Source: Escherichia phage BAU.Micro_ELP-22
DNA: 64,000 nucleotides
Sequence record: OR699282.2
Reading direction: 5' to 3' (one strand)
Within the stretch, counting starts at the first letter, position 1. Each line of letters opens with the position of its first letter. The position numbers and the translations under genes are program-made. Shown piece after piece: positions 1,843-63,456 of this stretch. The notes beneath the pieces were generated by a model. It saw only the letters and a list, made by a program, of their open reading frames with translations, was not told where the DNA came from and ran no database searches.

Positions 1843-3255
1843 ATGGCTAAAAGTAAAAAAACAGAAAATCATAATATCGATAACCAAACACTAACTCTAC
1901 TAGATTATAACAGTTCTGATTATGTGAATACAACATCACTAGAATATTCGATGTATACACTAGACCGTGCTATTCCTGGAATTGATGGTCTAAAGAGTTC
2001 ACAACGTAAAGCAATCTTCACATTATCTAAAATTAGTGGGGAAATTAAAACAGTATCATGTGCTGGAAAAATGATTAGTGATGGTATCTATCTTCATGGG
2101 GACACGTCAGCATCAGGAACACTTCAAAATCTAGCATCTCCAGTAGCTAACAACTATCCTCTTATTGGAAAACGTGGTGGTTTTGGTACACAAGTAAACA
2201 GTACACCAGCATCTGCTCGTTACACTTATGTTAAAAAGAATAAGAGTACTGAGATGCTTGTTTTGCGTGATGCTGATATTATACCAATGAAAGAGAACTA
2301 TGACGGGACAACATATGAACCTGTTCATTTCTTGCCTATTATTCCATTATCATTGTTTGGTAATGATAGTATGTCAGTTGGTTATAAGAGTACAATTCTA
2401 CCACATAAAATTGAAGATATTATTGATAATTGTATTCGTGCTATTGATAAAAAACCACTAAAAGAAATGACCCCATATTATGTTTCATGTGGTGCAAGTG
2501 ATGTTGTGACTAAGCTTGATGAAAATAAGTATGAATTCTATGGTAAAGCTGAGGTTATTGATGCAAGCACTGTTAAAGTAACAGGCTTACCACCTAATTA
2601 CAGTATTGAGAAATTCATCGAAAAACTAATCAAAATGAGTGATGATGGTGAGATTCGTGATTATGACAATGATAGTACTGATGTAATTGATATTACCATT
2701 AAACTTCCACGTGGAACGTCAGCTAAATGGACAGAGATGGATGTTATTGAGTATTTTGGCATTAACAAAAAAATGACTCAACATTTAACTGTTCTAGGTG
2801 AAAATGGCAAAGTGAAAGTTTACGATACGACAATGGATTTGATTAAAGACTTCGTTGATTTCCGTTTCAAATATTACATCAAGCGTTATGAAAAGAAACT
2901 TGATGATTGTGCTGCTGAAGTTCGTTATAAAATTCTAATTAAAGAATGTTTCGATAATGATATGATTGCTAAGGTAAAAGGATTTGCAAACCGTGCTGAA
3001 ATGGTTGAATTCGTTAAATCGTTAAATACCGAAATTGAAGCAACGGAAGAGAATATTCAAAGCATTGTAAACTTCCCTTCATATCGCTGGACGCAAGATA
3101 ATTATCAATCAGTACTACAAGATATTCAAGATAATCTTGATTTGATGGATAAGTACAATGAACTGTTATCTAATCATGACTTAATTTGGGACATTTATAA
3201 ATCTGAACTAAAAGAACTAAGAAAGATTGACTTTACTCCTAAATCAGACAATTGA
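1843..3255 (+). CDS. 52: DNA topoisomerase II medium subunit (GyrA-like breakage-reunion domain)
   Basis: 470 aa; LDRAIPGIDGLKSSQRKAIF resembles GyrA/ParC N-terminal signature; immediately follows the large subunit. Confidence 0.8.
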   Translation: MAKSKKTENHNIDNQTLTLLDYNSSDYVNTTSLEYSMYTLDRAIPGIDGLKSSQRKAIFTLSKISGEIKTVSCAGKMISDGIYLHGDTSASGTLQNLASPVANNYPLIGKRGGFGTQVNSTPASARYTYVKKNKSTEMLVLRDADIIPMKENYDGTTYEPVHFLPIIPLSLFGNDSMSVGYKSTILPHKIEDIIDNCIRAIDKKPLKEMTPYYVSCGASDVVTKLDENKYEFYGKAEVIDASTVKVTGLPPNYSIEKFIEKLIKMSDDGEIRDYDNDSTDVIDITIKLPRGTSAKWTEMDVIEYFGINKKMTQHLTVLGENGKVKVYDTTMDLIKDFVDFRFKYYIKRYEKKLDDCAAEVRYKILIKECFDNDMIAKVKGFANRAEMVEFVKSLNTEIEATEENIQSIVNFPSYRWTQDNYQSVLQDIQDNLDLMDKYNELLSNHDLIWDIYKSELKELRKIDFTPKSDN

Positions 3256-3265
3256 TATATTTAAT

Positions 3266-3290
3266 GGAAGACCTTATGGGTCTTCCTTGT
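3266..3290 (+). terminator. Candidate hairpin terminator after topoisomerase genes
   Basis: ggaagacc-ttat-gggtcttcc stem-loop followed by T-rich tract. Confidence 0.45.
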
Positions 3291-12588: not shown

Positions 12589-12617
12589 TTGACTATCATA
12601 CGTGCTGCCCGTATAAT
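12589..12617 (+). promoter_or_regulatory. Sigma70-type early promoter
   Basis: TTGACT, 17 nt spacer, TATAAT; inverted repeat gtgctgc/gcagcac flanks the -10. Confidence 0.65.
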
Positions 12618-12665
12618 GTTTATCACAGAGCAGCACATCATATTAAATTAAACGAGGAATACTAA

Positions 12666-13802
12666 ATGTCCGAGAAAGAAATCAATCCTAAAAAAGCATC
12701 CACCGCAGCTAAATCAGCAAAACGCACTACTAAAACTGCGTCTAAAGGTCATACAATTGATGCAAGTGATATTTTTAACCAAACTACAAAATCACTACCA
12801 GTACTGAAAGATGTTAAGGGAAATACTATGTCTCTAACAGTTCAAAACATCAATACTGTTGGTACAACTGCTGGTGCTGCTGTTGGGCGTTTGGCTGATG
12901 AAATTATGTCTAAAGTTAATGTAACGGATGACAATACCGAGTTTGGTAAATCAATCACCACAATTCTTACGTTGACTCGTGCAGTTGATATTGACAGTCT
13001 TCAAGAAGATAAATCAATTGTTGGTCGTATTAAGAAATTCTTTGTTAATGCTCAACAGAAAGTAGGTGATCAGTACAAAAACAGTAAAGAGCAAATTGAC
13101 GAAATTATGAAAACTCTTCAAACTGGTATTAATCGCCAGCACGGAGAATGTGAATGGCTTGATAAAGCATATAATGAAAACAAAGAATATTTGTTTGAAT
13201 TACGTGATACATTAGTTGGTTTAGAAGAAGTAACTAAAACACAAGATGCATTATTATTAGAAATGCAAGCAGACAAAAATGTAGACTCTTTTGCTATTCA
13301 AGAGCAAAAGATGATTTGTGAAGCACTTTCTAAACAAGAAGATAAGATTCGTCGTCTTATCATGATGTGCGAGCTAAGTGGTCCACGTTTGATGAGTATG
13401 AAAAAAGTAAACTTGAACACTGTTTCTAAGTTTGAAGATTTAAAATCTGTTGTTATTCCAGCATGGAAGTCTCAATTGGCTGAACAGTTAATTTCCGAGC
13501 GTCAACGTAAGGATAATGAACTAGGCAATCTAATTGATAATGAGACAAACCGTCTTTTGGAAACTAACTCTAAAATGGTTGCAGCAAATATGTTGGACGC
13601 AGCAAAGGCAAACAACCGTGGTATTGTGGATATTAAAACCTTGCGTAATGTACATAAAACGATGATTGACAGTATTGAAGCAGTTATTGAAGAAGAGAAA
13701 AAAGGTAAATTGGAACGTGAACGTGCTAAACAGGAAATTGCACAACTTTCCTATGAACTGGAAGACACTCTTCGTGAAATTGCCGAAAAAGCTAACAAGT
13801 AA
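12666..13802 (+). CDS. Hypothetical coiled-coil-rich protein (possibly TelA-like, unverified)
   Basis: 378 aa; lysine-rich N-terminus; family assignment is weak recall only. Confidence 0.55.
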   Translation: MSEKEINPKKASTAAKSAKRTTKTASKGHTIDASDIFNQTTKSLPVLKDVKGNTMSLTVQNINTVGTTAGAAVGRLADEIMSKVNVTDDNTEFGKSITTILTLTRAVDIDSLQEDKSIVGRIKKFFVNAQQKVGDQYKNSKEQIDEIMKTLQTGINRQHGECEWLDKAYNENKEYLFELRDTLVGLEEVTKTQDALLLEMQADKNVDSFAIQEQKMICEALSKQEDKIRRLIMMCELSGPRLMSMKKVNLNTVSKFEDLKSVVIPAWKSQLAEQLISERQRKDNELGNLIDNETNRLLETNSKMVAANMLDAAKANNRGIVDIKTLRNVHKTMIDSIEAVIEEEKKGKLERERAKQEIAQLSYELEDTLREIAEKANK

Positions 13803-13805
13803 TAG

Positions 13806-13834
13806 TTGACATATGAGTGCGTTTTTAATATAAT
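13806..13834 (+). promoter_or_regulatory. Sigma70-type early promoter
   Basis: TTGACA, 17 nt spacer, TATAAT. Confidence 0.6.
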
Positions 13835-13858
13835 CTTATTGAAAACGCACTCTTTTTA
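13815..13858 (+). terminator. Terminator hairpin whose loop contains the -10 of the next promoter
   Basis: gagtgcgtttt / aaaacgcactc 11-bp stem followed by TTTTT. Confidence 0.55.
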
Positions 13859-13881
13859 ATGTACAGATAAGGAACTAACTT

Positions 13882-14571
13882 ATGAAACGTCGTCATATTA
13901 GTGTTGATATTGAAGCTCTTGGAACACCTGAACTTTCCGGTTATGATATTATTATCCCAAATTACGCAGCAGTAGTAGTTCCAAGTAAACCTGAAAATGA
14001 CATTCGTCAGTTCTTATATATTAAATTACCATACCAGGATCAAGTTGCAACTGGTTTAAAATCAGACGCAGGTGCAATGGATTTTTGGATGAATACATGT
14101 CAGAAAGAATACCCTAATGCATATGCTGAAGTTGCCAGTACTATGAAACTCAAAGCACCTGAACTGTATGGACCTAATGGTCAATCACGACGTTTTTTTG
14201 CATACAGTAGTATTGTTGATTTCTGGAAAGAATTACGTTACAATGATTATGGTGAAGAAGTTCCTCATTCAGTCTGGGGCAACGGATGTAACTTCGATTG
14301 TAGTATTTTACAAGCAAACCATTTAAAACTAATGAACGCTGGTGAGTTGTGGAAGTATGATGCACCTGAAAATGCACGCACATTGAAACGTTTATTGAAT
14401 GAAGAAGCTCGTATTGAAATGGATGAAATCGTTTCGGTACAGTTGGATAAATTTATCAGATATGCAAATACGTGTGGGATTAATGGGTTGGAGTTACATC
14501 ACCCACTGTTTGATGCAGCACGTGAAGCAATCCAGATTTCATTCTGTCTAAACAAGCTTAAAATGGATTAA
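13882..14571 (+). CDS. dexA: DexA-like 3'-5' exonuclease (DEDDh family)
   Basis: 229 aa; Exo I motif SVDIEALG, Exo III-like HHPLFDAAREA; size and layout like T4 DexA. Confidence 0.65.
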   Translation: MKRRHISVDIEALGTPELSGYDIIIPNYAAVVVPSKPENDIRQFLYIKLPYQDQVATGLKSDAGAMDFWMNTCQKEYPNAYAEVASTMKLKAPELYGPNGQSRRFFAYSSIVDFWKELRYNDYGEEVPHSVWGNGCNFDCSILQANHLKLMNAGELWKYDAPENARTLKRLLNEEARIEMDEIVSVQLDKFIRYANTCGINGLELHHPLFDAAREAIQISFCLNKLKMD

Positions 14572-14574
14572 TAC

Positions 14575-15669
14575 ATGAATTTCATTATTCTGTTAATACC
14601 TGCTCTTATCGTTGTATTCGTTATGAAATACATGTACGATAAGCATATCAGTACTAAAGAACTATTGATTCATATTGGTTGTTGTCTGGTTGGTGCGGCT
14701 CTTGTTCTTGGTATTTCATACGCAATCAACTATAGCCAGCTTTATGATGTTGAGATTCTGAATGGTCAAGTAACTTCAAAATACAGCCACAAAGAATATT
14801 GCACACAATCTAGTTCATGTAAGCACTATACATGGCATGAGAAGTGCCATACGCGATATGATAGTAAAGGTAAATCACATCGTGAGTGTGAATCATATAA
14901 GGTTTTTGATTACTCATATGAAGTTGATTGGTATGTGAAAAGTACAGTAGGTGAGTTTGAGATTGAACGTGTGAACCGTCAAGGTACAATGACACCACCA
15001 CGTTGGCAGCAAGTTATGATTGGTGACTATGCCGCCGCAGAGAGTTCATATATCAACTATCTATTTGCTGATAAGAACTCATTGTTTAGTCCTGAAGAAC
15101 TACACAACATGTATGATGAAAAGTATCTTAGTACTATTCCAGAATACCCAAGTGTAGTTGATTATTACAAAATACATCACGTAATTAACACTACAAATTA
15201 CAACGTTGATGGTTACGATGAATACCTTCGTAATGAGCTAAAAACGATGGGTGCAAGAAAGCAGGTAAACATCCAAGTACTAGTTTATGATTACAAAGAT
15301 GTGGATTTTGTTGATGCTACCCTTGCATCGTGGCGTGGTGGTAAGAAGAATGATGTTATTATGTTCTTTGGTATTGACAATGATGGTAACGTTGTCAAAT
15401 TTTACAGTACATCATTTGCACAAGGAATGAAGAATGAAGAGTTACATGCAAAGATGCGTATTGATGCATTAAATGAAAAATTAACTCTTGACTTACTAGT
15501 TAAAGAAGTACATAATATTGACAAACATTTTGAGAGACTCTCTAATAAAGAGTTTGAGTACTTGTCAGTAAAAATGGAACCTAGAAAAGATGTTCTTATC
15601 GGTGCTTCCATTGTGTTGTTGATTCTGTCTATTTTCATTGGCCTTTATATGAGGGATAACGATTTATGA
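14575..15669 (+). CDS. Membrane protein, Cys/His-rich central region
   Basis: 364 aa; hydrophobic segments at both termini. Confidence 0.55.
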   Translation: MNFIILLIPALIVVFVMKYMYDKHISTKELLIHIGCCLVGAALVLGISYAINYSQLYDVEILNGQVTSKYSHKEYCTQSSSCKHYTWHEKCHTRYDSKGKSHRECESYKVFDYSYEVDWYVKSTVGEFEIERVNRQGTMTPPRWQQVMIGDYAAAESSYINYLFADKNSLFSPEELHNMYDEKYLSTIPEYPSVVDYYKIHHVINTTNYNVDGYDEYLRNELKTMGARKQVNIQVLVYDYKDVDFVDATLASWRGGKKNDVIMFFGIDNDGNVVKFYSTSFAQGMKNEELHAKMRIDALNEKLTLDLLVKEVHNIDKHFERLSNKEFEYLSVKMEPRKDVLIGASIVLLILSIFIGLYMRDNDL

Positions 15670-16220
15670 ATGGTAAACTCCTTGCGTTAATTGGTATTTT
15701 GGTAGTTATCGTACTAATGGTGTTTGGTTCTATTAGTATGTATGTTGGTGCACATGATCGTGCAGTTGAGTTTGAAGGAAACATTAAAAAGTACTATGAT
15801 GCATCAGAAAGTCAACTTAGCAATTATACTCTTACTATTCAAGATAAGGTTCAAGTAGCCGATAAGTATAAAGATGCGTTGAAAGAAACGATTGAATCAT
15901 ACTTTAAAGGGCGTGAAGGTGTTGACCAGAAGTTTGTAATGTCACAGATTCAACAACAGGTTCCAAATCTTGATCCTAAAATTTATCAGGAATTGATGGT
16001 GACAATTGAAACAGGACGTACAAAGTTCAACAATCTTCAGAAAATGAAAATTGACCAGTGTACTGATTATGCTAAGTTCCGCAAAGGCTTCTGGAATTCC
16101 AAAATTCTTGATTCGAATACGTTTCCAAGTGAAAATATTGAACACCTTTGTACAGTAGTATCTGATACGCGTACCAAGAAAGCAATGGATACTGGTATTC
16201 AAGAATCAATTAAACTATAA
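15666..16220 (+). CDS. Membrane-anchored hypothetical protein
   Basis: 184 aa; N-terminal TM helix; ATGA overlap. Confidence 0.55.
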   Translation: MNGKLLALIGILVVIVLMVFGSISMYVGAHDRAVEFEGNIKKYYDASESQLSNYTLTIQDKVQVADKYKDALKETIESYFKGREGVDQKFVMSQIQQQVPNLDPKIYQELMVTIETGRTKFNNLQKMKIDQCTDYAKFRKGFWNSKILDSNTFPSENIEHLCTVVSDTRTKKAMDTGIQESIKL

Positions 16221-16229
16221 TTAAATGTT

Positions 16230-16255
16230 GGGAGTACTTTGTACTCCCCTTTTCT
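16230..16255 (+). terminator. Rho-independent terminator
   Basis: gggagtac-ttt-gtactccc hairpin followed by CTTTTCT. Confidence 0.7.
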
Positions 16256-21055: not shown

Positions 21056-21451
21056 ATGAAGAACAATATTGGAACTTCAATAATTAAACCACTTTCTTAT
21101 TACCTTGAAAAATTTAGAAGCACAAATGGTAATAAATTTAATAATATATTTCAGTTCTCTCATAAAGAATATATTACAATTGATCATTTTTCAAAGAAAC
21201 TAATGTATGTAAATGATAATAGTCATATTATTAAATTATCATTCGATATTGAGTTAGATAAATTAACATTTACGGAATACATTAATCAAAAAACTTCTTT
21301 TTTATGTCAATACAATAGGAAAGTATATAGTAATATTTCTATGTATCTAAATGATGAATATCACTTTCAACAATCTACAATAGAAGAAGTATTGTTCAGT
21401 ACTGAAGAATTAAAAGAACTATATTACTGGTATAATTATTTCACATCTTGA
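21056..21451 (+). CDS. C-terminal FFQ-x-S motif family member
   Basis: 131 aa; NDEYHFQQSTIEE; GAGGA RBS. Confidence 0.55.
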   Translation: MKNNIGTSIIKPLSYYLEKFRSTNGNKFNNIFQFSHKEYITIDHFSKKLMYVNDNSHIIKLSFDIELDKLTFTEYINQKTSFLCQYNRKVYSNISMYLNDEYHFQQSTIEEVLFSTEELKELYYWYNYFTS

Positions 21452-21506
21452 CATTATTGTGGGTTTATCCTACAATACATGATGATGCTGCATTGAGGAT
21501 AAATTT

Positions 21507-21917
21507 ATGAGTTTAGATTTACACAATGAACTAAAATATTTTTTAGATTTGGACATATCAGAATTGAACCACCACGTCAATCATATGACTAGTACTGTAT
21601 GGTGGTCTAATGATCAAGACGACCCAATTATCCAACTAAGTGATGAATCGTCAATTATGCGATTTTATAAGATTAATTATAAAACGAACATCAAGATCAC
21701 ATATGTACCATACAAAAACATACTACTAGTCGAAACACTTAATCCAAGTTCTTTATTAAAAATCACCGATTTAGATACATTACAAACAAGTGAATCTTTA
21801 TTCCAACGTTCATTAGTTGATGATCTTGGTGGTATTACTTTTGAAGATATATTACAATTGAAGAATATGTATAGTGAATTGTTGGAGATTAAAAACACTT
21901 TAGTAATGGGGAATTGA
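21507..21917 (+). CDS. C-terminal FFQ-x-S motif family member
   Basis: 136 aa; TSESLFQRSLVDD. Confidence 0.55.
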   Translation: MSLDLHNELKYFLDLDISELNHHVNHMTSTVWWSNDQDDPIIQLSDESSIMRFYKINYKTNIKITYVPYKNILLVETLNPSSLLKITDLDTLQTSESLFQRSLVDDLGGITFEDILQLKNMYSELLEIKNTLVMGN

Positions 21918-35624: not shown

Positions 35625-36033
<409 letters not shown>

Positions 36034-40931: not shown

Positions 40932-41135
40932 ATAGCTTCTAGTCAGTACTGATTCCTCCTTATGTATAGAAGCTATCACTTTTTTACGTATAATGATATT
41001 ACCCTCAAATTCATTATATTCGTTACCCTCTAACAGTATCTTTTTATTCCTCTTGGATGCTGTAATTTAGAAGTTGACTTTTTAACTTCTACTGTGTTAT
41101 ACTTAAGGCTGATTCGATGAATCGGCCTTTTTTCT
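40932..41135 (+). terminator. Cluster of three hairpins, the last a probable terminator
   Basis: gatagcttcta...tagaagctatc (11-bp stem) plus T6; tagaagtt/aacttcta; ggctgattc/gaatcggcc plus T6. Confidence 0.5.
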
Positions 41136-44130: not shown

Positions 44131-44919
44131 ATGAGCAACATTTTCTTCAAAACTATTTCTTTCAAAAAAGCATCTTACTCCTACGCCTACGTTGATGGTA
44201 AAGTGCTTAATATTGTACTGGATGGTGTTGACGTACCAGTTGAATTTAAAACACATGAAGAAGCAGTTGAAGGTGCTAAAGAATTGAATTCAATTCTTAA
44301 TGGTGAAGTAAGTCAAAAACAACATGTAAAATCTGATTTAGATGTACTTTTGGAAAAAATCAAAACTGGTGAAGTATTAGAAATTTTAGACAACTGTAAT
44401 GAAAAACTTCGTAATGTAGTTAATAATGTTCGTGACCAGATTCAAGAAAAAGCACTAGAGCAAGCATTCAAACATGTATCCAAGAATGCTGAATCTCGTA
44501 TTGACGGTATGGTTAAAAATCTTGATGATGTACTATCCCATCTCTTTACTAAAGAATACGAACAAGAAGTTGAAGAAGAACCAGTAAAAGAAACTAAAAA
44601 AGAAAAACGTAGCTTTGGCTCAGGTGATGATGTGTTTGGTTTTACGAATGTCAGAACAAGTGCAGATGAACCAAAAGAAATTAGTGAGATGCTCATTGGT
44701 GACATGACAACTAAGCAGCTTCGTAATGAAATTGACAAGTTTGTAACTAGTTGTATCAAATCAGAACGTGCACAAAGTATGTTTAAAAGCATTAGTGAGA
44801 ACTTTGGTCCAGAAGCAACTGAGCAGGCACTAACTGCATTTAAAGAATTGATTTATAATGTAGCCATTAGCAATCCAGATAAAACACTTGAAGAAGTTCT
44901 ACGTGACAATTTCAAATAA
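44131..44919 (+). CDS. Hypothetical acidic protein
   Basis: 262 aa from ATG with GGAG RBS. Confidence 0.55.
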   Translation: MSNIFFKTISFKKASYSYAYVDGKVLNIVLDGVDVPVEFKTHEEAVEGAKELNSILNGEVSQKQHVKSDLDVLLEKIKTGEVLEILDNCNEKLRNVVNNVRDQIQEKALEQAFKHVSKNAESRIDGMVKNLDDVLSHLFTKEYEQEVEEEPVKETKKEKRSFGSGDDVFGFTNVRTSADEPKEISEMLIGDMTTKQLRNEIDKFVTSCIKSERAQSMFKSISENFGPEATEQALTAFKELIYNVAISNPDKTLEEVLRDNFK

Positions 44920-44931
44920 TTAGATAAAATT

Positions 44932-44961
44932 AAAGCCACTACAATGTAGTGGCTTTTTTTA
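44932..44961. terminator. Bidirectional terminator between convergent genes
   Basis: agccactac/gtagtggct hairpin flanked by A-run upstream and T7 downstream. Confidence 0.7.
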
Positions 44962-59452: not shown

Positions 59453-59803
59453 ATGAAAATTATTTTATTTTTTGTATGTATGTTAATGTGTGGATTGTCA
59501 TATGCTGAACCATTGGAAGGTTTAGTTTGTACAGATGGTAATATTAAACATATCTATCAAGGTGATAGTGACAATCGAGATATTGTATATATTGATGGAC
59601 AATCATATACGTTTGTTAAAGAGCATACAGTAGGCGACATTAGCTTCACTGAGTTTTCTAACGACACAGACCCTAACTTCTTAGCGTTTATTGAAGTAGA
59701 TGTATATGAAGATAGTAATGGCACACAATATGCTAAATTAGTTATGATGCGTCGTGGTGCTAAAGAAACTAGTTTTGGTGGCTTGTGTAAATATAAGGAT
59801 TGA
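59453..59803 (+). CDS. Secreted protein (paralogue of 58703 gene)
   Basis: 116 aa; signal peptide SYA-EP; IVYIDGQSYTF. Confidence 0.55.
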   Translation: MKIILFFVCMLMCGLSYAEPLEGLVCTDGNIKHIYQGDSDNRDIVYIDGQSYTFVKEHTVGDISFTEFSNDTDPNFLAFIEVDVYEDSNGTQYAKLVMMRRGAKETSFGGLCKYKD

Positions 59804-59807
59804 TATT

Positions 59808-59999
59808 ATGTTGATTTATCAAAGTGATAATATTCGTGTTATGCAGCATCCCTACTTACAAATCTTTGATGTGCAGCAGTATATGGAAGGTGATGACCCA
59901 AGAACCTATGGTCGTAAGTATGATTACTTCACTGTAAAGCAGTGTAAAAATATTAACGAAGTACGACAATTAGTTCAAGAACTTCAAAACAAAGGTTGA
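59808..59999 (+). CDS. Hypothetical protein
   Basis: 63 aa from ATG with AAGGA RBS. Confidence 0.45.
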   Translation: MLIYQSDNIRVMQHPYLQIFDVQQYMEGDDPRTYGRKYDYFTVKQCKNINEVRQLVQELQNKG

Positions 60000-60025
60000 C
60001 TTCGGTCAGCCTTTTTTGTTATAAT
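59994..60025 (+). terminator. Composite terminator-promoter element, copy 1
   Basis: ggttgac-ttcg-gtcagcc hairpin plus T6; the hairpin contains TTGACT and is followed 18 nt later by TATAAT. Confidence 0.65.
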
Positions 60026-63410: not shown

Positions 63411-63418
63411 CAAAATAA

Positions 63419-63440
63419 GGTTGACTTCGGTCAGCCTTTT
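63419..63440 (+). terminator. Composite terminator-promoter element, copy 3
   Basis: ggttgac-ttcg-gtcagcc hairpin plus TTTT; near-identical to copy 1. Confidence 0.65.
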
Positions 63441-63448
63441 CTTTATAC

Positions 63449-63456
63449 TATAAATA
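63449..63456 (+). promoter_or_regulatory. T4-type late promoter box TATAAATA
   Basis: Exact TATAAATA 19 nt upstream of the 63475 start. Confidence 0.5.

What the first reader, a model, noticed from the sequence alone, without database searches (positions are those of the whole stretch)
13806..13858. Terminator hairpin with the promoter -10 element in its loop
An 11-bp stem (gagtgcgtttt / aaaacgcactc) plus T-run follows the 12666 gene, while TTGACA-17-TATAAT overlaps it so that the -10 sits in the loop and the predicted start site falls inside the 3' arm. Read-through transcripts would form the terminator; promoter-initiated transcripts would lack the 5' arm.
Basis: seen in the sequence. Interest (0 to 1): 0.45.

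Follow-up and report, generated by a model that had tools for sequence, protein, structure and literature searches.

The report
Overlapping terminator and early promoter in phage
In a giant E. coli phage, 52 bases between two genes encode both a stop signal for incoming transcription and a perfect start signal for the next gene; the overlap is real and conserved, but it is a layout already described in T4-type phages, so it is a new example and not a new mechanism.

Summary
TTGACA (13806-13811), a 17-nt spacer and TATAAT (13829-13834) overlap a hairpin at 13815-13852. The hairpin has an 11-bp core that extends to 16 bp, and a T5 run follows it.

The window comes from an Asteriusvirus jumbo coliphage (121Q/PBECO4/G17 group). 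The element lies between a TelA-like gene and a 3'-5' exoribonuclease-like gene.

Both signals look selected:
- Perfect sigma70 sites are about 45-fold enriched and all lie on the coding strand.
- Both hexamers are invariant in eight distinct orthologous sequences.
- The stem shows two compensatory changes and two G.U-compatible changes.
- Phage A4 has an unrelated hairpin in the same promoter frame.

RNA started at the predicted start site (about 13841) lacks the 5' arm and does not fold before the U-run.

It is not new in kind. Composite "promoter-early stem-loop" (PeSL) cassettes of T4-type phages have stem-loops between or overlapping the -35/-10 boxes. Their terminator activity and their promoter activity were each shown separately with lacZ reporters. 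Salmonella ribosomal operons also have terminator-promoter overlaps.

Verdict: a new member of a known kind, of low to moderate interest.

The parts
12589..12617 (+). Upstream sigma70-type promoter (TTGACT-17-TATAAT, 11/12) in front of the TelA-like gene. It is the likely source of the transcripts that reach the hairpin.
12666..13802 (+). TelA-like gene (378 aa) whose transcript the hairpin would end. Stop codon TAA at 13800-13802.
   Evidence: Pfam TelA PF05816, E = 2.2e-37; ORF list
13806..13811 (+). -35 hexamer TTGACA, 4 nt after the stop codon. Invariant in all Asteriusvirus orthologues examined.
13815..13830 (+). 5' arm of the hairpin (GAGTGCGTTTTTAATA). It occupies the promoter spacer and the first two bases of the -10.
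13829..13834 (+). -10 hexamer TATAAT, at the top of the stem and in the loop. Invariant in all orthologues.
13831..13836 (+). Apical loop TAATCT of the 16-bp form of the hairpin.
13837..13852 (+). 3' arm of the hairpin (TATTGAAAACGCACTC). It contains the predicted transcription start.
13841..13842 (+). Predicted transcription start (G13841 or A13842), 7-8 nt after the -10. This is inferred, not measured.
   Evidence: Position rule for sigma70 promoters (established knowledge). RNA from 13841 has no hairpin before the U-run.
13853..13857 (+). T5 run directly after the stem (terminator U-tract).
13870..13873 (+). Shine-Dalgarno AGGA, 8 nt before the ATG of the downstream gene.
   Evidence: sequence
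13882..14571 (+). Downstream gene (229 aa, Rv2179c-like 3'-5' exoribonuclease domain). It is the first gene of the unit driven by the embedded promoter.
   Evidence: Pfam PF16473, E = 1.5e-8; ORF list
16230..16248 (+). Next canonical terminator hairpin (GGGAGTAC-TTT-GTACTCCC plus T-run). It is the probable end of the unit that starts at 13841.
   Evidence: annotated as a terminator in G17

Best explanation
This is a composite terminator/early-promoter element of an Asteriusvirus jumbo coliphage.

Host sigma70 RNA polymerase that started upstream (P12589, P11381) transcribes the TelA-like gene. It then transcribes the full inverted repeat at 13815-13852. The nascent RNA forms a 16-bp hairpin with a GC-rich base, followed directly by U5, and most of this transcription ends at about 13853-13857.

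The same DNA is a consensus sigma70 promoter. The -35 lies 4 nt after the stop codon, the 5' arm fills the spacer, and the -10 sits at the apex. Polymerase binding there starts at about G13841, inside the 3' arm. That RNA carries only half of the repeat, cannot form the hairpin, passes the T-run and expresses the exoribonuclease-like gene and the two genes after it, as far as the terminator at 16230.

The net effect is insulation of two adjacent early transcription units within a 79-nt intergenic gap.

Shown here: the sequence elements, their statistical excess, the folding difference between the two RNAs, and conservation with covariation. Inferred: actual termination, actual initiation, the exact start site, and any cross-talk between the two processes.
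For: 1. Coordinates and a 12/12 promoter match.
2. The hairpin folds at -20.9 to -23.2 kcal/mol, z = -5.4. It is annotated as an ARNOLD terminator in phage G17.
3. Sigma70 consensus sites are strongly enriched and strand-biased. There are 70 sites at >=10/12 on the + strand against 15 on the - strand. Ten sites are perfect, all on the + strand. Exact N17 sites number 5 against 0.11 expected.
4. The promoter sits 48 nt before the ATG, as other strong promoters in the window do.
5. Orthologues UE-S1, ph0011, Turkey3, BF17, vB_Ec-M-J, CMSTMSU and Turkey5/JNE01 keep invariant TTGACA and TATAAT. Spacing is 17-18 nt, except 15 nt in the unverified CMSTMSU record. All keep a -11.8 to -19.2 kcal/mol hairpin and a T-run.
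6. Turkey5 changes two adjacent stem pairs on both sides (A-U to G-C, and G-C to A-U). ph0011 and UE-S1 each have a one-sided change to G.U, which pairs only in + strand RNA. The T-run and A-run lengths inside the arms co-vary (5/4, 4/3, 3/3).
7. Phage A4 has an unrelated hairpin (ATGTGCCCATT/AATGGGCACAT, -16.8 kcal/mol, then TTTT) in the identical TTGACA-17-TATAAT frame.
8. RaK2, Muenster, Serratia BF and Erwinia pEa_SNUABM_12 have a plain canonical terminator at the same telA-downstream position.
9. RNA from the predicted start has no structure before the U-run.
10. In some comparisons the 150-nt bin containing the intergenic region is more conserved than the flanking coding bins, for example 93% against about 80% in Turkey3.
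11. Experimental precedent exists for the same layout. For RB49/phi1 PeSLs, terminator and promoter activities were each shown with lacZ fusions (PMC2839356).
Against: - There are no transcript-end data for this phage. No Asteriusvirus TSS or Term-seq study was found in the library.
- The hairpin is unusually long, with an A-U-rich upper half, compared with the 7-9 bp terminators elsewhere in the window. Its efficiency is therefore unknown.
- The U-tract has only 5 U.
- The promoter lacks the TGn extended -10 that several other promoters in the window have.
- A U5 tract at about +13 to +17 of the promoter-initiated RNA could affect promoter escape.
- The covariation rests on only about five distinct stem variants.
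Confidence: 0.75

Rival explanations
1. Terminator only. The TTGACA-17-TATAAT match is a fortuitous by-product of an AT-rich hairpin apex, and the downstream gene is expressed by read-through. This appears to be the case in RaK2 and Serratia BF, where no promoter lies between the terminator and the gene.
For: RaK2 and Serratia BF orthologous loci have a terminator and no consensus promoter before the exonuclease/peptidase-like gene. The G17 annotators marked only a terminator.
Against: - A 12/12 match at optimal spacing has 0.11 expected occurrences per window.
- Both hexamers are invariant while spacer and loop sequences change by substitutions and 3-nt indels.
- A4 replaced the hairpin yet kept the promoter frame exactly.
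- The position relative to the ATG is typical of the window's other strong promoters.
Confidence: 0.07
2. Promoter only. The inverted repeat acts at the DNA level, either as an operator for a dimeric phage or host regulator or as a supercoil-driven cruciform that hides the -10. It is not an RNA terminator.
For: The repeat straddles the -10, where repressors often bind. As single-stranded DNA it also folds well (-13.2 kcal/mol, z = -7.5), and the AT-rich centre would favour extrusion.
Against: - A T-run follows the 3' arm in every lineage, including the unrelated A4 hairpin.
- Two lineages carry G.U-type substitutions that keep pairing only in + strand RNA and break DNA symmetry.
- The half-site is not repeated elsewhere in the 64-kb window.
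- The half-site centres are about 27 bp apart, which is unusually far for an operator.
- Relatives have a plain terminator at this position.
- A complete swap of the repeat sequence in A4 would require a co-changed regulator.
Confidence: 0.05
3. In addition to the regulatory role, the element is a PeSL-type recombination cassette. Its conserved promoter frame would serve as a short homology patch for modular shuffling of neighbouring genes, and the A4 variant would be a product of such an exchange.
For: - PeSLs in T4-type phages mediate indels and mini-circles (PMC2839356, PMC4122927).
- A4 is identical through TAATAGTTGACATAT and then diverges abruptly.
- Repeated regulatory cassettes exist in the window: identical hairpins at 59994 and 63419, and a near-identical promoter family at 35625, 36034, 36413, 54261 and 58223.
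Against: - The telA-exonuclease gene order is conserved in all Asteriusvirus genomes examined.
- The identity profiles show no sharp junction at the element.
- This hairpin sequence is unique in the window.
Confidence: 0.1

Closest known systems
PeSL (promoter-early stem-loop) composite promoter-terminator cassettes of T4-type myoviruses RB49/phi1, T4/PST and KVP40/nt-1 (Arbiol et al. 2010, PMC2839356; Comeau et al. 2014, PMC4122927)
   Same: - The element runs from the upstream stop codon, through an A/T-rich stretch and a near-perfect TTGACA-N17-TATAAT, to the SD and ATG.
- A stable stem-loop is placed between or over the promoter boxes. The authors state that the commonest positions are between -35 and -10 or overlapping the -10.
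- The proposed role is the same: stop upstream early transcription and restart it.
- The host polymerase and the temporal class are the same.
- The window also holds the '-35 in the stem' subclass, at 59994 and 63419.
   Different: - There is no sequence relation to the published stems (Gn-loop-Cn, A3-4G3-loop-C3T3-4, AGNA-loop-TCNT).
- The hairpin is much longer (16 bp, 38 nt) and spans the whole -10, so the start site falls in the 3' arm.
- This element is single-copy in the window and flanks conserved genes with recognisable domains, not ORFans.
- No link to indels was seen.
- The host phage is a roughly 350-kb Asteriusvirus, a group for which I found no PeSL report in the library.
[quoted passage not shown]
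   Same: The terminator of the upstream unit physically overlaps the sigma70 promoter of the next unit, and the overlap is conserved in evolution. The authors found that a higher polymerase load on the tufB terminator lowers secE-nusG expression, and they proposed promoter exclusion as the cause. The same cross-talk could apply here.
   Different: Those are cellular operons, and the coupling there is tied to Rho/NusG autoregulation. The exact geometry was not readable here because it is given in a figure. No expression coupling has been tested for the phage element.
Genome-wide promoter-terminator coupling in bacteria (bioRxiv 10.64898/2026.08.19.745784, 'Widespread coupling of promoters and terminators of transcription in bacteria')
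   Same: [quoted passage not shown] The text contains 'overlapping the terminator' once and 'loop' 13 times.
   Different: The paper could not be opened, so the geometry and mechanism cannot be compared. The term count shows no mention of 'bacteriophage'.
[quoted passage not shown]
   Same: These are very strong sigma70-dependent phage early promoters that out-compete host promoters. Downstream genes are reached either from their own promoters or by extension of upstream early transcripts.
   Different: T4 early promoters are described as UP/-35/TGn/-10 promoters. P13806 has no TGn, and its spacer is taken up by the hairpin arm.

Membership tests
PeSL composite promoter-terminator cassette | Intergenic element that begins at the stop codon of the upstream gene and ends with the SD and ATG of the downstream gene | tested here: met
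   Stop at 13800-13802, -35 at 13806, AGGA at 13870-13873, ATG at 13882. The intergenic gap is 79 nt.
PeSL composite promoter-terminator cassette | Near-consensus sigma70 early promoter (TTGACA-N17-TATAAT) | tested here: met
   12/12 match with a 17-nt spacer. This pattern has 0.11 expected per window.
PeSL composite promoter-terminator cassette | [quoted passage not shown] | tested here: met
   The 20 nt upstream are aaaaagctaacaagtaatag, 15/20 A or T (my count from the sequence). This stretch is also the 3' end of the telA coding sequence.
PeSL composite promoter-terminator cassette | Stable stem-loop placed between or overlapping the -35/-10 boxes | tested here: met
   The 5' arm lies in the spacer, the -10 lies in the apex, and the 3' arm follows the -10.
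PeSL composite promoter-terminator cassette | Many sequence-related copies per genome, concentrated in hyperplastic regions next to ORFans | tested here: not met
   The arm sequence occurs only here in the 64-kb window. Inverted repeats around the -10 are not a general feature of the window's 32 strong promoters. The flanking genes are conserved and have Pfam domains. Other composite elements do exist, at 59994 and 63419.
PeSL composite promoter-terminator cassette | Association with indels, replacements or mini-circle recombination | tested here: inconclusive
   Gene order is conserved. A4 has a replaced hairpin, but no sharp identity junction is seen. Mini-circles cannot be tested here.
Intrinsic (Rho-independent) terminator | GC-rich stem base followed immediately by a U-tract, downstream of a stop codon, on the transcribed strand | tested here: met
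   GAGUGCG/CGCACUC base followed by U5, starting 12 nt after the stop codon. The reverse strand has no T-run (sequence). ARNOLD prediction in G17.
Intrinsic (Rho-independent) terminator | Structure, not sequence, conserved among relatives | tested here: met
   Two double-sided compensatory pairs, two G.U one-sided changes and no disruptive change in the stem base. An unrelated hairpin plus T-run in A4. A plain terminator at the same site in RaK2 and Serratia BF.
Intrinsic (Rho-independent) terminator | Releases transcripts in vitro or in vivo | not testable with these tools
   Needs in vitro transcription or Term-seq.
Sigma70 -35/-10 promoter | Hexamers, spacing, and position upstream of a gene with an SD | tested here: met
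   The hexamers are invariant across eight distinct orthologous sequences.
Sigma70 -35/-10 promoter | Directs initiation by E. coli holoenzyme | not testable with these tools
   Needs 5'-RACE, Cappable-seq or run-off transcription.
Bacterial inter-operon terminator-promoter overlap (Brandis et al. 2019) | Upstream transcription load modulates initiation at the overlapped promoter (promoter exclusion) | not testable with these tools
   Only the physical overlap can be shown here.

The most novel reading that the evidence does not exclude
The overlap may be more than space-saving insulation. It could couple the two units kinetically in one of two ways. First, polymerase that releases its RNA at 13853-13857 is already sitting on the promoter's initial transcribed region. 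It could rebind sigma70 and restart at 13841 without leaving the DNA (termination-reinitiation hand-over). Second, terminating polymerases and promoter-bound polymerases could exclude each other, so that output of the exoribonuclease unit is set by traffic through telA. Placing the start site inside the 3' arm would then be a selected design for origin-dependent termination with built-in recycling. The evidence here neither supports nor excludes this.
Probability: 0.12. Interest if true: 0.55.

Novelty: new member of a known kind. Interest (0 to 1): 0.22.

Why it matters
The finding extends the composite promoter/terminator (PeSL-type) layout from roughly 170-250 kb T4-type phages to the roughly 350 kb Asteriusvirus jumbo phages. 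It also gives an unusually clean natural example in which one 38-nt repeat acts as a terminator only for RNA that started upstream.

The comparative series makes a good substrate for testing how terminator-promoter overlaps evolve and whether they couple neighbouring units. The series runs from a plain terminator in RaK2 and Serratia BF, through overlapped elements with covarying stems in most Asteriusviruses, to a swapped hairpin in A4.

There is also a practical point. Existing annotations such as G17 mark only the terminator, so the transcription-unit maps of these phages miss an early promoter here.

Tried and rejected
- Rfam scan of 13600-14000: only a chance microRNA-precursor match (E = 0.98, 17.5 bits against a gathering score of 86). 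No known RNA family.
- IMG/VR pattern scan with the stop codon plus -35 context: it returned the 121Q genome and five contigs of an unrelated phage. In those contigs the 20-mer follows a 66-aa ORF, the promoter is TTGACA-17-TAGATT and there is no terminator. I treated this as a chance or very local match and did not use it.
- Test of whether an inverted repeat around the -10 is a general property of this phage's early promoters: it is not. Only P13806 stands out (score 36). P21448 scores 24 and P12589 scores 19. The remaining 29 strong promoters score 9-19, within the 99th percentile of the random control (21).
- Operator or repeated-site idea: the arm sequence has no further copy in the window. 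A BLAST of the 47-mer finds only the orthologous loci plus chance hits in Acinetobacter phages. Most Asteriusvirus records show '2 places'. This is most simply the palindrome matching both strands, which I did not verify.
- Recombination junction at the element: sliding identity profiles against five relatives show no sharp break.
- Transcriptome or TSS data for Asteriusvirus or RaK2-like phages: none found. Only predicted RpoD-like promoters were found, in phage CBB.
- The 2026 bioRxiv preprint on promoter-terminator coupling could not be opened under three identifier attempts. Only the start of its abstract and some term counts were used.
- Formal count of structure pairs was not run. MAFFT misplaced the gaps at the 3' end of the stem, so pairs were counted by anchoring on the invariant GTGCG/CGCAC core.

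Full report
**What the window is.** Bases 12600-15700 are 99.0-99.7% identical to Asteriusvirus jumbo coliphages of about 350 kb, including slurp01, PBECO4, G17 and 121Q. The window is AT-rich, with 29-37% G+C. Its genes and its sigma70-like sites are almost all on the + strand.

**Check of the observation.** The sequence reads TAA(stop 13800-02)-TAG-TTGACA(13806-11)-TATGAGTGCGTTTTTAA-TATAAT(13829-34)-CTTATTGAAAACGCACTC-TTTTT(13853-57).
- The consensus scan scores the promoter 12/12 with a 17-nt spacer. It reports the hairpin at 13815-13852 as 16 pairs with a 6-nt loop and a T-rich tail.
Five more pairs (one G.U and four A-U) can close the 16-nt 'loop' down to TAATCT. TA of the -10 then lies in the stem top and TAAT lies in the loop.
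- As RNA, the 76-nt region around the hairpin (13795-13870) folds at -23.2 kcal/mol, z = -5.4, and 0 of 200 shuffles fold as well.
- As single-stranded DNA it folds at -13.2 kcal/mol, z = -7.5.
- The G17 GenBank record already marks the hairpin as an ARNOLD terminator, but marks no promoter.

**Context.**
- The upstream gene (12666-13802) is TelA-like (Pfam E = 2e-37).
- The downstream gene (13882-14571) has an Rv2179c-like 3'-5' exoribonuclease domain (E = 1.5e-8). Several records label it a metallopeptidase.
- P12589 (TTGACT-17-TATAAT) and P11381 lie upstream and would feed transcription into the element.
- The next canonical terminator after the element is at 16230.

**Are the promoter matches meaningful in this genome?**
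- The + strand has 70 sites at >=10/12 and the - strand has 15. Ten sites are perfect 12/12 (spacer 16-18 nt), all on the + strand.
- Exact TTGACA-N17-TATAAT occurs 5 times against 0.11 expected.
- Strong sites typically lie 30-100 nt before start codons. P13806 lies 48 nt before its ATG.
- RpoD-like early promoters have been predicted in related RaK2-like phages (PMC5259590).

**Comparative evidence.** I fetched the telA-to-downstream-gene intergenic region from relatives at 95% to below 70% identity.
- UE-S1, ph0011, Turkey3, BF17, vB_Ec-M-J, CMSTMSU and Turkey5/JNE01 all keep TTGACA and TATAAT unchanged.
- Spacers are 17 nt, except 18 nt in ph0011 and 15 nt in the 'UNVERIFIED' CMSTMSU record.
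- All keep a hairpin of -11.8 to -19.2 kcal/mol with the -10 in its apical part, a predicted start in the 3' arm, and a T-run.
- Anchoring on the invariant GTGCG/CGCAC core, Turkey5 changes the two basal pairs on both sides (A-U to G-C, and G-C to A-U).
- ph0011 and UE-S1 each have one change to G.U.
- The T-run and A-run inside the arms shorten together (5/4, 4/3, 3/3).
- No change disrupts the stem base. G.U-compatible changes pair only in + strand RNA, which argues for an RNA structure and against a symmetric DNA site.
- Phage A4 carries a wholly different hairpin (ATGTGCCCATT-GTAT-AATGGGCACAT, then ATTTTATT) inside the same TTGACA-17-TATAAT frame. There the -10 spans the loop and the 3' arm. 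Two different hairpins in the same promoter frame suggest that both functions are maintained.
- Outside the genus, RaK2, Muenster, Serratia BF and Erwinia pEa_SNUABM_12 have a short canonical terminator at the same position and no consensus promoter before the next gene. RaK2 and Serratia BF, the two scanned, do have a perfect promoter in front of telA.
- The 150-nt bin containing the element is as conserved as, or more conserved than, the flanking coding bins in ph0011, Turkey3 and Turkey5.

**Mechanism.** RNA that begins at the predicted start (G13841) folds at only -4.0 kcal/mol, z = +0.6, with nothing paired before the U-run. It should therefore not terminate. RNA arriving from upstream contains both arms. 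Termination, initiation and the exact start site remain inferred.

**How general is the layout in the window?** Among about 18 canonical terminators, three overlap a promoter:
- This element, with the -10 at the hairpin apex.
- Two identical hairpins, GGTTGACTTCGGTCAGCC at 59994 and 63419. Their 5' arm is the -35 (TTGACT) of a promoter, and their T-run forms the spacer.

Two more terminators (11344 and 38966) are followed within 10-18 nt by strong promoters. An inverted repeat straddling the -10 is not a general feature of the promoters. P13806 scores 36, against a random mean of 13.1 (sd 2.6), and most other promoters score near that background.

**Comparison with what is known.**
- The arrangement matches the PeSL (promoter-early stem-loop) cassettes of T4-type phages. 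[quoted passage not shown]
- One PeSL stem-loop reduced lacZ expression about as much as rrnB T1. A different, wild-type PeSL drove about 13,000 Miller units (PMC2839356).
- PeSLs were later found in T4/PST and KVP40/nt-1 (PMC4122927).
[quoted passage not shown] A raised polymerase load on the tufB terminator lowered secE-nusG expression there, and the authors proposed promoter exclusion (PMC6735719).
- A 2026 preprint reports genome-wide promoter-terminator coupling in bacteria. Only the start of its abstract was visible.
- The present element meets the architectural PeSL criteria. It does not meet the 'repeated, ORFan-associated, recombination-linked' criteria: it is single-copy in the window, lies between conserved genes and shows no junction. 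It therefore works like a PeSL, but membership in a sequence-related PeSL family is not shown.

**Verdict.** The kind is known. The instance, in Asteriusvirus with the whole -10 inside a long hairpin and the start site in the 3' arm, appears not to have been annotated before. Interest is low to moderate.

Noticed in passing
window 59991-60025 and 63417-63449: Two identical terminator hairpins (GGTTGACTTCGGTCAGCC, UUCG loop, then a T-run). The 5' arm of each contains the -35 TTGACT of a downstream promoter (TGTTATAAT at 60017-60025; TATACT at 63444-63449). At 59997-59999 the TGA inside TTGAC is also the stop codon of ORF 59754-59999. Stop codon, -35 and terminator stem therefore share the same bases.
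   Followed up: partly
window 21448-21510: Promoter TTGACA-17-TACAAT whose spacer segment GUGGGUUUAUCCU pairs with the SD and AUG (AGGAUAAAUUUAUG) of the gene starting at 21507. The fold is -18.8 kcal/mol, z = -2.2. Read-through RNA would have its ribosome-binding site sequestered, while promoter-initiated RNA would not. This is a translational analogue of the finding.
   Followed up: partly
window 35625, 36034, 36413, 54261, 58223: A family of near-identical strong promoters sharing the spacer 'aaata(g/a)ttcagtactg' and TATAATg, which includes a TGn extended -10. These are repeated regulatory cassettes that could serve as recombination patches.
   Followed up: no
window 63446-63453: TATAAATA, the T4-type late-promoter motif, lies directly after and partly overlaps the -10 of the early promoter at 63421-63449.
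   Followed up: no
window 12602-12636: The telA promoter P12589 also has a 7-bp inverted repeat (GTGCTGC/GCAGCAC) straddling its -10, but with a 21-nt loop and no T-run. Its score lies only at the 95th-99th percentile of random positions.
   Followed up: partly
window 41074-41127 and 44903-44953: Two weak (10/12) promoter-like sites end 4 nt before canonical terminator hairpins, so a start from them would fall inside the 5' arm. This may be chance.
   Followed up: no
L010/L011 (Serratia BF, Erwinia pEa_SNUABM_12) 2959-3285: In Eneladusvirus an extra 327-nt gene sits between the telA terminator and the exonuclease/peptidase-like gene. The junction after this terminator has therefore accepted an insertion in another genus.
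   Followed up: no
window 13882-14571 and its orthologues: The downstream gene is annotated inconsistently across records: metallopeptidase, peptidase, DUF5051, DNA polymerase III epsilon, and 3'-5' exoribonuclease. Pfam here supports only the Rv2179c-like exoribonuclease domain.
   Followed up: partly
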